Source: a virus (Duplodnaviria; Heunggongvirae; Uroviricota; Caudoviricetes). From it: 33,372 nucleotides of DNA. Positions 8,318 to 9,002 of this stretch are shown here, piece after piece. Position 1 is the stretch's first letter. Each line of letters starts with the position of its first letter. Both the position numbers and the translations under genes were made by a program. The notes under the pieces were generated by a model. It saw nothing but the letters and a program-made list of their open reading frames with translations, made no database searches and was not told the origin of the DNA. The DNA lies in IMG/VR virus record IMGVR_UViG_2534681662_000018, one strand, 5' to 3'.

Positions 8318-9002
8318 AGACTGGGGTATTGATAAAAGTTGTGGCCGGGACGTCCTGGTGTACAAAAACTGTAGCGTGATTGAAGGAGAAGATGCCTGGC
8401 AGGTTCTGGATATACTTCGTTCTGCTTTATGCAGAGCTGGCTATGTTACGCCAGCGTCAGTTAATGGCGGAACTGCCACTACCTGTATCAGAAAGCAACT
8501 TTATAGTTTTTATACAGCCTACAACCGATGGTTAAAGAATGGGGCAATGGAGACGGGCGATGATGTATTTACCCGGGCTGCCGGATTATGTGCCAATGCT
8601 TACGATTATTTTGAATCAACCGGTGCAGACAGTGAAGCCGCATTAGAACAATTACATGCGGACTTTATCTCAGCAGGGCTGAATGAGAAATTGCCATTTA
8701 ACCGGGACAGCAAACATTACAGAAACGAAAGCAAATTGGCCAGATGCCACCTGAATTCAGCACGTGTGGCATGGGTTGAAAAACACTGTATTAGTTCTGA
8801 TTCAGAAATAACGGGGAAAAAGACAGTCGGTGAAAATTCGTATTCGTGGCTGGGGACATTCACCACGGTGAAACAGGAATGCTCGACCTGCGGTAATGAA
8901 AACCCTGAATATCTGAAAGAGTGCCCTCATTGTGGTGGGCAGAAATGCAACAACTGCGATATGGGCGATGACACGGCGTGCATGAATTGTGAAGGTGAAT
9001 AA
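8307..9002 (+). CDS. Early-region hypothetical protein with C-terminal 8-Cys zinc-ribbon-like motif (about 231 aa; start uncertain)
   Basis: Track ORF 8244..9002; in-frame GTG at 8307 is preceded by AGGAGG at 8295-8300, and an ATG at 8244 is also possible. C-terminus CSTCGNENPEYLKECPHCGGQKCNNCDMGDDTACMNCEGE. Confidence 0.55.
   Translation: MKFEDWGIDKSCGRDVLVYKNCSVIEGEDAWQVLDILRSALCRAGYVTPASVNGGTATTCIRKQLYSFYTAYNRWLKNGAMETGDDVFTRAAGLCANAYDYFESTGADSEAALEQLHADFISAGLNEKLPFNRDSKHYRNESKLARCHLNSARVAWVEKHCISSDSEITGKKTVGENSYSWLGTFTTVKQECSTCGNENPEYLKECPHCGGQKCNNCDMGDDTACMNCEGE

What the first reader, a model, noticed from the sequence alone, without database searches (positions are those of the whole stretch)
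8880..8999. Early protein ends in an 8-cysteine zinc-ribbon-like module
The last 40 residues (CSTCGNENPEYLKECPHCGGQKCNNCDMGDDTACMNCEGE) contain four CxxC-type pairs, typical of zinc ribbons that bind nucleic acid or mediate protein contacts. Such modules on otherwise unknown early phage proteins are a common feature of host-factor inhibitors.
Basis: seen in the sequence. Interest (0 to 1): 0.4.

Follow-up and report, generated by a model that had tools for sequence, protein, structure and literature searches.

The report
Phage Mu gp13 zinc module, fused
The eight-cysteine tail is real and is a copy of the small, still uncharacterised phage Mu early protein gp13. In this Mu-like E. coli prophage it is fused in frame to a second phage domain. 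It most likely acts as an acidic, two-zinc protein-binding module rather than a DNA binder.

Summary
Window 8880-8999 (+) encodes CSTCGNENPEYLKECPHCGGQKCNNCDMGDDTACMNCEGE, followed by TAA. It is the only CxxC cluster in the six-frame translation.

The window is a Mu-like prophage. The module is the homologue (87-91% identity) of Mu gp13/E14, a 60-aa stand-alone "uncharacterized protein". Here gp13's own ribosome-binding site and ATG are gone. The module is fused in frame to an upstream segment that replaces Mu gp12, giving a 231-aa protein (GTG 8307 to 9002; RefSeq WP_001721507.1; phrog_6418).

Across 101 relatives all eight Cys, the 4- and 7-residue spacers and a D-M-G-D-D loop are conserved. 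Every one of 100 members examined is net acidic.

AlphaFold models the module confidently (pLDDT 87). It has no significant match in PDB, Pfam, NCBIfam or PADLOC. The weak resemblances are to zinc ribbons and PHD/FYVE/GATA-type fingers.

The family is an accessory gene of Gamma- and Betaproteobacterial mobile elements:
- Mu-type early regions
- lambdoid early-left operons
- between portal and Mu F genes
- an ICE-like island

The function is unknown. My best inference (about 0.4) is a zinc-scaffolded acidic protein binder that modulates a host or phage DNA-handling protein. Nucleic-acid binding is unlikely. This is an ordinary to moderately interesting member of a known but unstudied family.

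The parts
7778..8317 (+). Upstream gene, the homologue of Mu gp11. Its stop codon (TGA 8315-8317) is overlapped by the start of the fused gene.
   Evidence: Pfam Gp11_C, E 2.8e-39. phrog_1949, E 1e-105. 96.6% DNA identity to Mu up to position 8300.
8293..8298 (+). Shine-Dalgarno-like AGGAGG, 8 nt upstream of GTG 8307.
   Evidence: Read directly from the sequence. The equivalent start is used by PGAP in two E. coli genomes and by database cluster P0001.
8307..9002 (+). Coding sequence of the 231-aa fusion protein (N segment + B domain + gp13 module). It is identical to WP_001721507.1.
   Evidence: phrog_6418 matches the full length, E 1.3e-164. Exact sequence look-up. dN/dS is 0.31 over the whole gene against a copy with about 6.5% nucleotide divergence.
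8307..8486 (+). N-terminal 60-aa segment of unknown nature. It is found only in this fusion family.
   Evidence: It matches only phrog_6418. AlphaFold confidence is below 50. There are no substitutions among the copies compared.
8487..8816 (+). Helical 'B' domain (aa 61-170). It also occurs alone, as a 129-aa protein, in the same gp11-GemA slot of other Mu-like prophages, and it occurs in many other phages.
   Evidence: phrog_2510, E 9e-30. Homologues P0002-P0011. Context of P0004. More than 200 phage records by tblastn. pLDDT about 70-79 and helical. dN/dS 0.32.
8831..8838 (+). Recombination junction. DNA similarity to Mu gp13 resumes here (TCGTATTCGTGG = S-Y-S-W). gp13's own SD and ATG are absent upstream.
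   Evidence: blastn block 8831-9224 against Mu, 83.5% identity. DNA alignment A3.
8832..8999 (+). Region homologous to Mu gp13/E14 (aa 176-231).
   Evidence: phrog_5584, E 2.6e-36, covering positions 5-60 of 60. 87-91% identity to gp13 of Mu, D108, SfMu and the Yersinia Mu-like phages. Mu gp13 translation.
8868..8870 (+). In-frame GTG that could in principle start a separate 44-aa module (MKQEC...). There is no evidence that it is used.
   Evidence: Read from the sequence. The same GTG is present in Mu, where the upstream ATG is annotated as the start.
8880..8999 (+). The Cys8 core: C-x2-C-x10-C-x2-C-x4-C-x2-C-x7-C-x2-C followed by EGE. Presumed to hold two Zn(Cys)4 sites.
   Evidence: All 8 Cys are invariant in 101 sequences. 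The spacers of 4 and 7 residues are fixed in 100 of 100. AlphaFold pLDDT 87, with a hairpin carrying the CPHC knuckle and a C-terminal helix.
8958..8972 (+). Invariant acidic loop D-M-G-D-D between the third and fourth CxxC pairs.
   Evidence: DMGDD is present in 94 of 100 family members. D32, G34 and D35 are invariant.
9004..9369 (+). Downstream gene, the homologue of Mu gp14. It starts 1 nt after the TAA of the fusion gene.
   Evidence: phrog_6075, E 9e-47. DNA similarity to Mu extends to 9224.

Best explanation
SHOWN. Window 8307-9002 is one early-operon gene of a Mu-like E. coli prophage. It encodes a 231-aa chimera. A 60-aa N segment and a roughly 110-aa helical phage domain (phrog_2510) replace Mu gp12. 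They are fused in frame to the homologue of Mu gp13/E14. The fusion arose by recombination exactly at the gp13 start, removing gp13's own ribosome-binding site and ATG.

The gp13 part is a 45-residue module with these family-wide features:
- eight invariant cysteines
- fixed 4- and 7-residue spacers
- an invariant Lys
- an invariant D-M-G-D-D loop
- an acidic tail

The family is normally a stand-alone 46-70-aa protein. It is an accessory gene of Gamma- and Betaproteobacterial phages and ICE-like elements.

INFERRED.
- The eight cysteines hold two zinc ions. The ligand topology is unresolved. The spacing and the weak fold matches favour a PHD/RING-like cross-brace in which pairs 2 and 4 form a treble clef. 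The first two pairs also look like a zinc ribbon.
- The metals make a rigid mini-scaffold that displays the DMGDD loop and the acidic tail.
- Because the module is small, uniformly acidic and moves between unrelated genomic slots, it most likely works by binding a protein. The target would be a conserved host or phage DNA-handling or defence protein, which it inhibits or modulates through an acidic, DNA- or metal-site-mimicking surface.
- It probably does not work by binding nucleic acid.
- In this prophage the fusion simply tethers that module to a second, independently occurring early-region domain.

Confidence in the identity part is about 0.95. Confidence in the mechanism is about 0.4.
For: Identity and fusion:
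- DNA 8831-9224 is 83.5% identical to Mu gp13+gp14, while 8300-8830 has no similarity to Mu.
- Mu gp13 translation.
- The alignment shows the loss of gp13's SD and ATG.
- phrog_5584, E 2.6e-36, and phrog_6418 over the full length.
- PGAP annotates the same 231-aa CDS in two genomes.
- Purifying selection acts in the fused frame: dN/dS 0.17-0.33 for the module and 0.32 for the B domain.

Metal module:
- Eight invariant Cys plus K27, D32, G34 and D35 in 101 sequences.
- Fixed spacers.
- AlphaFold pLDDT 87, with a knuckle-bearing hairpin and a C-terminal helix starting at the last CxxC.
- Sub-threshold zinc-ribbon hits for pairs 1-2.
- The top Foldseek hits are PHD, FYVE, GATA and RING fingers, for example GATA with 29 columns at 2.0 A.

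Protein binder rather than DNA binder:
- The module has charge -6 and pI 4.4.
- All 100 members examined are net negative, with a mean of -8.7, and the tails are acidic.

Mobile accessory gene:
- Mu-type early region in 33 loci, next to a Rv2179c-like exonuclease and int in lambdoid prophages in 10 loci, and between Portal_Mu and Mu_F in 4 loci.
- An ICE-like island in Thauera.
- A block of small ORFs in an uncultured phage.

Modules shuffle. The B domain occurs alone in the same slot. A+C and A+B fusions also exist.

The Mu early 'semi-essential' region is transcribed from Pe, and its functions are largely unknown (PMC3820752).
Against: - No experiment and no homologue of known function supports any target or activity.
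- All fold and profile matches are non-significant. The best Foldseek E-values are 0.46 against PDB and 0.14 against BFVD. All Pfam hits are below the curated cut-offs.
- Zinc (rather than iron, or disulfides) is assumed from the motif only.
- Retention of the gene near GemA in distant transposable phages (L064, L089, L098) could mean a role in the phage's own transposition or regulation rather than in host inhibition.
- The fusion may have no functional meaning beyond being tolerated. The N segment shows no substitutions, so selection on it cannot be judged.
Confidence: 0.4

Rival explanations
1. Nucleic-acid-binding zinc ribbon. The module binds DNA or RNA and regulates early gene expression or transposition. 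This was one of the first reader's options.
For: The first two CxxC pairs give weak matches to zinc ribbons of nucleic-acid proteins: RadA, RPA12/TFS, eL37 and TFIIB-type. The gene lies close to the regulators GemA and Mor in Mu-type phages.
Against: The module has net charge -6 and pI 4.4. All 100 family members examined are net negative, with acidic tails. The invariant surface motif is acidic (DMGDD). The only invariant basic residue is one Lys. All ribbon matches fall below the curated thresholds.
Confidence: 0.1
2. An acidic 'finger' that enters an enzyme active site. The zinc scaffold pushes the DMGDD loop into a cationic or Mg2+-binding catalytic pocket, such as the RNA polymerase secondary channel (as TFIIS, DksA and TraR do) or a nuclease or restriction enzyme. 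This is a specific sub-case of the protein-binder model.
For: The strictly invariant D-x-G-D-D loop sits between two fixed-length zinc knuckles. There are weak profile matches to TFIIS-like C-ribbons (RPA12, 1qyp). Neighbouring genes are often DNA-end or recombination functions: Gam, a Rv2179c-like exonuclease and RdgC.
Against: The argument rests purely on motif analogy. In TFIIS the acidic hairpin lies between the first and second knuckles of a single-zinc ribbon, which is a different geometry. No significant similarity was found. No partner is conserved across contexts.
Confidence: 0.12
3. A neutral recombination accident. The in-frame junction is a tolerated by-product of cassette exchange in the gp11-GemA slot. 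The gp13 module then either works just as the free protein does (perhaps also made from the internal GTG 8868), or is inert in this context.
For: The slot is highly mosaic. The junction lies exactly where similarity to Mu resumes. The fusion is rare: 2 of 5,426 complete E. coli genomes, 4 of 66 viral loci and no cultured phage. An in-frame GTG at 8868 is retained. Stand-alone is the dominant architecture.
Against: The fused frame is intact in copies differing by about 6.5% at the nucleotide level, with dN/dS below 1 in both halves. This holds even after a further recombination patch inside the B domain. A second, independent fusion of the module to other N-terminal modules exists (P0012).
Confidence: 0.2
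4. A non-zinc or non-inhibitor role. Possibilities are a rubredoxin-like Fe(Cys)4 or redox module, a DnaJ-type zinc-finger chaperone element, or a LysW-like acidic carrier protein.
For: The best PDB sequence hit is LysW, E 0.008. There are weak hits to LapB-type rubredoxin in 20 of 101 members and to DnaJ_CXXCXGXG in 3 of 101. The C-terminal tail is acidic.
Against: The hits cover only the first ribbon and are all below threshold. No ATP-grasp LysX/ArgX-type partner, J-domain or redox enzyme appears in any context examined. The LysW EDWGE terminus is absent (sequence).
Confidence: 0.06

Closest known systems
Bacteriophage Mu gp13 (E14; UniProt GP13_BPMU, NP_050617; phrog_5584)
   Same: Identity is 87-91% over the last 56 residues. 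All eight Cys, the spacers and the DMGDD loop are the same. The position is also the same: after the gp11/gp12 slot and immediately before gp14, GemA and Mor.
   Different: Mu gp13 is a free 60-aa protein with its own SD and ATG. Here that start is deleted and the module is the C-terminal domain of a 231-aa protein. gp13 itself has no known function (no relevant papers).
129-aa 'prophage protein' family (P0002-P0005; phrog_2510 domain)
   Same: Residues 61-170 of the window protein are 60-69% identical to it. It occupies the same gp11-GemA slot in other Mu-like prophages.
   Different: Those proteins stop after ...WVEKHCIKEMGQNESHIPD and carry no Cys8 module. The prophages that have them lack gp13 altogether.
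PHD / RING / FYVE binuclear (cross-brace) treble-clef fingers
   Same: The ligand spacing pattern is similar: a variable first spacer, a short second spacer (4 here; 4-5 in PHD from my own knowledge of the consensus), and eight ligands for two zincs. The top Foldseek hits are PHD, FYVE, RING and GATA fingers, with TM 0.41-0.55 normalised to the query. In the model, the last CxxC lies at the start of a helix and the second CxxC in a hairpin turn, as in a treble clef.
   Different: No match is significant (E at least 0.46). Pfam PHD and Prok-RING_2 hits are below cut-off and occur in few members. All ligands are Cys. The third spacer is only 7 residues. There is no link to ubiquitin or chromatin functions.
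Classical zinc ribbons (Pfam Zn_Ribbon_1, DZR; RadA N-terminus, LysW, TFIIS-type C-ribbons)
   Same: The first two pairs, CxxCG...x10...CPxCG, look like two ribbon knuckles and give the best sequence-profile matches.
   Different: Scores are below the curated thresholds: 21.5 against 25 for Zn_Ribbon_1 and 15.1 against 27.3 for DZR. The second half, K-C-x2-C-D-M-G-D-D-x2-C-x2-C, matches nothing.
Small phage or prophage zinc proteins with known roles (Rac Lar restriction alleviation; Mu Com; TraR/DksA-type C4 fingers; YacG gyrase inhibitor)
   Same: All are small Cys4-containing proteins of mobile elements or hosts that act by binding proteins or RNA. Lar_restr_allev gives weak hits in 8 of 101 family members. 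YacG appears at E 0.63.
   Different: Each of these has one Cys4 site and no DMGDD motif, and none reaches significance. The window module itself does not hit Lar (part A). The comparison of roles rests on my own knowledge and is a lead only.

Membership tests
Mu gp13 family (phrog_5584) | Significant full-length profile match | tested here: met
   phrog_5584, E 2.6e-36, aa 176-231 aligned to profile positions 5-60 of 60. 87-91% identity to gp13 of Mu, D108 and SfMu.
Mu gp13 family (phrog_5584) | Eight Cys with spacing C-x2-C-x(9-29)-C-x2-C-x4-C-x2-C-x7-C-x2-C, plus the DMGDD loop | tested here: met
   All are present in the window. They are invariant in the family.
Mu gp13 family (phrog_5584) | Position in the Mu-type early region, upstream of gp14/GemA/Mor | tested here: met
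   Gene order Gam, gp11, this gene, gp14 homologue, GemA, Mor. The same order is seen in 33 related loci.
Mu gp13 family (phrog_5584) | Free-standing protein of about 46-70 aa with its own start | tested here: not met
   gp13's SD and ATG are absent and the module is fused in frame to 175 upstream residues. Hence this is a fusion variant, which PHROGs holds as its own family, phrog_6418.
Zinc ribbon (Pfam Zn_Ribbon_1 PF13240 / DZR PF12773) | Score at or above Pfam's gathering threshold | tested here: not met
   Zn_Ribbon_1 scores 14.3 bits on the full ORF and 21.5 bits on the module alone, against a cut-off of 25. DZR scores 15.1 against 27.3.
Zinc ribbon (Pfam Zn_Ribbon_1 PF13240 / DZR PF12773) | Two knuckles that jointly bind one zinc | not testable with these tools
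   Model coordinates and metals are not available. Only secondary structure was returned.
PHD/RING-type cross-brace binuclear finger | Eight-ligand spacing with a variable first spacer and a short second spacer | tested here: met
   Spacer 1 is 9-29 residues and spacer 2 is 4 in 100 of 100 members. The comparison with the PHD/RING consensus rests on my own knowledge.
PHD/RING-type cross-brace binuclear finger | Significant structural or profile similarity | tested here: inconclusive
   The top Foldseek hits are PHD, FYVE, RING and GATA fingers, but with E of at least 0.46 and TM 0.41-0.55. Pfam PHD gives E 0.024 in one member. Prok-RING_2 hits 9 of 101 members, best E 9.5e-5.
PHD/RING-type cross-brace binuclear finger | Interleaved ligand pairing (pairs 1+3 and 2+4) | not testable with these tools
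   This needs coordinates or an experimental structure.
Lar restriction-alleviation family (PF14354) | Profile match above threshold | tested here: not met
   There is no hit for the window module. Weak hits occur in 8 of 101 relatives, best E 0.0048.
DnaJ cysteine-rich domain (PF00684) | Four CxxCxGxG repeats and a profile match | tested here: not met
   Only 3 of 101 members give weak hits, best E 0.0024. The repeats here are CxxCG, CxxCG, CxxCD and CxxCE.
LysW amino-group carrier | Ribbon plus a C-terminal EDWGE-type tail, and neighbouring ATP-grasp partner genes | tested here: not met
   The PDB hit (E 0.008) covers only the first ribbon. No such partner gene appears in any context.
Known anti-phage defence proteins (PADLOC) | Any model match | tested here: not met
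   There are no hits for the window protein, Mu gp13 or P0201.

The most novel reading that the evidence does not exclude
The gp13 family is an undescribed class of tiny, acidic, two-zinc 'finger' effectors carried by phages and ICEs of Proteobacteria. Its invariant K-C-x2-C-D-M-G-D-D-x2-C-x2-C element would plug the DNA- or metal-binding site of a conserved host enzyme, such as a nuclease, a defence protein or RNA polymerase. The Mu-like fusion seen here would couple that warhead to a second early-region domain. This would give Mu's long-unassigned semi-essential region a new molecular function.
Probability: 0.2. Interest if true: 0.6.

Novelty: new member of a known kind. Interest (0 to 1): 0.3.

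Why it matters
Mu has been a model phage for 60 years, yet most genes of its 'semi-essential' early region, gp13 included, have no assigned function (PMC3820752).

This analysis shows that gp13 is not a Mu oddity. It is the founding member of a sharply defined Cys8/DMGDD mini-protein family. The family recurs in several kinds of mobile element in Gamma- and Betaproteobacteria and can be fused to other early-region modules.

If a partner were found, it would add a new small zinc-scaffolded effector to the phage-host toolkit and explain part of the Mu early region. As it stands, the window copy is one more uncharacterised member. Both the protein and the fusion are already in RefSeq and PHROGs.

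Tried and rejected
1. Exhaustive representative search. I submitted alignment A1, which included the 271-aa P0012. All 271 columns became profile positions, so the top 150 hits were dominated by P0012's N-terminal modules. Only P0016, P0018 and P0105 hit the Cys module. I recovered with a module-only profile in the word-indexed search.

2. AlphaFold of the full 231-aa protein. Mean pLDDT was 52 and the Cys module scored 32-42, so the model is uninformative. Foldseek of that model against PDB found nothing.

3. Foldseek of the good module model against PDB and BFVD. No hit had E below 0.1.

4. Library scans. Pfam, NCBIfam and PADLOC gave no family above threshold. PDB sequence and profile searches gave nothing significant.

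5. Literature. Nothing was found on gp13/E14 function. The motif string 'CDMGDD' occurs in no paper.

6. A conserved neighbour that might indicate a partner. Clustering the ORFs around 90 or more loci found no neighbour shared across the different context types.

7. Alternative readings rejected.
- Minus-strand ORFs 8802-9203 and 8860-9036 have no homologues.
- The ATG 8244 start is unlikely, because the extension has no match and gene callers use GTG 8307.
- A sequencing error or frameshift is excluded, because the same frame occurs in independent genomes.
- A nested (pairs 2+3) zinc site is unlikely on geometric grounds, given the predicted hairpin. This is my inference.
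Full report
**1. The observation**

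The sequence at 8880-8999 (+) reads TGC...GAA and is followed by TAA at 9000-9002. It forms the last 40 codons of the ORF listed as 8244..9002. The peptide is CSTCGNENPEYLKECPHCGGQKCNNCDMGDDTACMNCEGE, with eight Cys in four CxxC pairs.

This is the only place in the six-frame translation of the 33-kb window where a stop-free 40-aa stretch holds three or more CxxC. Shuffling the parent protein, which is itself Cys-rich, gives four or more in 157 of 200,000 trials.

**2. Where we are**

The window is a Mu-like prophage. The genes identified are:
- Gam: 7155-7679
- gp11 homologue: 7778-8317 (Pfam Gp11_C, E 2.8e-39)
- GemA: inside the ORF ending at 10134
- Mor: 10131-10520

DNA identity to Mu is 96.6% up to position 8300. 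It is absent at 8300-8830, is 83.5% at 8831-9224, is absent again to 9588, and is 95% from 9589 onward.

No promoter-like site and no plus-strand terminator-like site lies between Gam and a hairpin at 10526-10546 just after Mor. This fits the long Pe early transcript of Mu. That transcript covers the 'semi-essential' region, whose functions are largely unknown (PMC3820752).

**3. What the Cys module is**

The block 8831-9224 corresponds to Mu gp13 plus gp14. Mu gp13 (formerly E14) is a 60-aa protein: MENNKTSYSWLGKFTTVKQECPTCGNESPEYLKECPHCGGLKCNHCDMGDDTACMNCEGE. Residues 176-231 of the window protein are 87-91% identical to gp13 of Mu, D108, SfMu, Mu_3F6 and the Yersinia Mu-like phages. They match phrog_5584 at E 2.6e-36. 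UniProt calls it 'Uncharacterized protein gp13'.

**4. The gene is a fusion**

In Mu, gp13 has its own GGAGG and ATG. In the window, similarity begins only at TCGTATTCGTGG (S-Y-S-W), the upstream sequence is unrelated, and there is no start codon. The reading frame continues upstream through a segment that replaces Mu gp12.

The probable start is GTG 8307:
- It is preceded by AGGAGG at 8293-8298 and overlaps the gp11 stop by 11 nt.
- PGAP uses the same start for WP_244588664.1 in two complete E. coli genomes.
- The 231-aa database cluster also uses it.
- The 21 codons from ATG 8244 match nothing.

The exact protein is WP_001721507.1, and PHROGs already holds the full-length fusion as phrog_6418. 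The fusion is rare:
- 2 of 5,426 complete E. coli genomes
- 4 of 66 IMG/VR loci
- none of 50,697 phage records

The fused frame is nevertheless intact in copies about 6.5% divergent. dN/dS is 0.32 for the middle domain and 0.17-0.33 for the linker plus module. An in-frame GTG at 8868 could in principle yield the module alone, but this cannot be tested here.

**5. The partner domain**

Residues 61-170 (phrog_2510, E 9e-30) are 60-69% identical to 129-aa 'prophage proteins'. Those proteins sit alone in the same gp11-GemA slot of other Mu-like prophages that lack gp12-gp15. More distant copies occur in over 200 phage genomes. AlphaFold models the domain as helical with pLDDT about 70-79. No fold or family match was found.

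A second, independent fusion joins the gp13 module to different N-terminal modules (P0012, also in a Mu-like prophage). A further protein joins those modules to the middle domain (P0023). These early-region modules therefore shuffle pairwise. The gp11-GemA interval acts as a cassette-exchange slot.

**6. The family**

A module-only profile retrieved 232 proteins. A 101-sequence alignment shows all eight Cys invariant, together with K27, D32, G34 and D35. Further properties come:
- The first spacer varies from 9 to 29 residues.
- The second spacer is always 4 and the third is always 7.
- The loop after the sixth Cys is DMGDD in 94 of 100 members.
- All 100 members are net negative (mean -8.7) with acidic tails.
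- The window module has charge -6 and pI 4.4.

Almost all members are free-standing proteins of 46-70 aa. Hosts are Gammaproteobacteria (Escherichia, Salmonella, Buttiauxella, Methylovulum and others) and Betaproteobacteria (Thauera, Rubrivivax, Hydrogenophaga, Paucibacter and others). Only 17 of 185,579 species-representative genomes carry the pattern.

The genomic contexts differ:
- Mu-type early regions upstream of GemA/Mor, in 33 loci including distant ones (L064, L089, L098)
- lambdoid prophages, next to a Rv2179c-like exonuclease and the integrase, in 10 loci
- between the Portal_Mu and Phage_Mu_F genes of the late operon, in 4 loci
- an ICE-like island with RdgC, DUF3268, DUF1173 and ParB in Thauera
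- a block of small ORFs in an uncultured phage

No neighbour is shared across the context types.

**7. Structure**

With the 101-sequence alignment, AlphaFold gives pLDDT 87. The model has a beta-hairpin (residues 17-19 and 26-28 of the 45-aa module) with the CPHC knuckle in its turn, and a short helix that begins at the last CxxC.

Foldseek finds nothing significant. The best hits are PHD, FYVE, GATA and RING fingers, with E of at least 0.46 and TM 0.41-0.55. GATA aligns over 29 columns at 2.0 A. The best BFVD hit has E 0.14. Sequence profiles match only the first two CxxC pairs, to generic zinc ribbons (LysW E 0.008, RPA12, eL37, RadA), all below threshold.

My reading is that there are two Zn(Cys)4 centres:
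- The spacing (variable, 4, 7) and the treble-clef-like arrangement of pair 2 (hairpin turn) with pair 4 (helix N-terminus) favour a PHD/RING-like cross-brace.
- A tandem arrangement (ribbon plus knuckle) is not excluded.
- A nested 2+3 site is unlikely, because C28 lies three residues down the strand from the knuckle.

All of this is inference.

**8. Mechanism**

Shown:
- the module is conserved
- it is acidic
- it has a fixed geometry
- it moves between unrelated genomic slots
- it lies in the early operon in this prophage

Inferred: a zinc-scaffolded mini-domain that presents the invariant DMGDD loop and an acidic tail to a protein partner. The partner is most plausibly a conserved host or phage DNA-handling or defence protein. 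The module would act as an inhibitor or modulator. I put this at about 0.4.

The nucleic-acid-binding alternative is disfavoured by the uniform negative charge (about 0.1). The idea of an active-site-plugging acidic finger is an attractive special case, but it rests only on motif analogy. The fusion may be functionally meaningful or merely tolerated (about 0.2 for 'accident').

**9. Comparison and novelty**

The window protein meets the sequence, motif and synteny criteria of the Mu gp13 family, but it is not free-standing. It fails the curated thresholds of every Pfam zinc family tested, including Zn_Ribbon_1, DZR, PHD, Prok-RING_2, DnaJ and Lar. It has no NCBIfam or PADLOC match. No paper in the library discusses gp13/E14 function or the motif.

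The window feature is therefore a new (fused) member of a known, catalogued but uncharacterised family. The family signature and its distribution seem not to have been described.

**10. Verdict**

The feature is real and correctly located.

Interest is modest (0.3). It would rise if a partner or phenotype were found.

Noticed in passing
window 8300-8831 and 9225-9588; loci L080-L083: The interval between gp11 and GemA is a cassette-exchange slot in Mu-like prophages. The window loses DNA similarity to Mu in two blocks. Other prophages carry only a 129-aa B-domain gene there. Others carry gp12, a 108-aa gene and an A-modules::gp13 fusion.
   Followed up: partly
window 9272-9511 (-) and 9192-9221 (-): A 79-aa minus-strand ORF (phrog_32893, E 7e-46) is followed on its own strand by a terminator-like hairpin with a 13-bp stem. 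The hairpin lies inside the coding sequence of the gp14 homologue (9004-9369). This looks like the counterpart of Mu's antisense gene gp15. It sits in a block with no DNA similarity to Mu.
   Followed up: partly
window 10526-10546 (+): A terminator-like hairpin (8-bp stem followed by a T-run) lies immediately after Mor, where the Mu early operon would be expected to end.
   Followed up: no
loci L074, L084, L096, L100: In several Beta- and Gammaproteobacterial phages or prophages the gp13-family gene sits in the late head operon, between the Portal_Mu and Phage_Mu_F genes, like a moron. It is not in the early region there.
   Followed up: partly
window 8487-8816 (aa 61-170 of the fusion): The middle domain has its own conserved motifs (GLCxN ... 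LPFN ... CHxN..RVxWV). It occurs in more than 200 phage genomes, including large rV5- and phi92-like coliphages, often in several copies per genome. It has no Pfam family and no fold match.
   Followed up: partly
proteins P0012, P0023, P0028, P0031 (not in the window): The N-terminal modules of P0012 belong to a very large, combinatorially shuffled set of enterobacterial prophage modules. 1,085 representative proteins have E up to 0.001, in many architectures. One protein (P0023) joins them to the B domain.
   Followed up: no
window 1-1130 and 1598-2188 (-): Two plus-strand ORFs (1-558 and 528-1130) precede a 196-aa minus-strand ORF at the position of the Mu c repressor, upstream of the 666-aa transposase-sized ORF (2578-4578). 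The first roughly 1.1-1.5 kb may be host flank or the prophage left end. I did not examine this.
   Followed up: no
proteins P0022, P0228, P0276, P0185 (relatives): A few database relatives lack one or more CxxC pairs because of what look like frameshifts or truncations. Examples are P0228, which keeps only pairs 3-4, and P0276, which is truncated after pair 1. These are probably decaying prophage copies.
   Followed up: no
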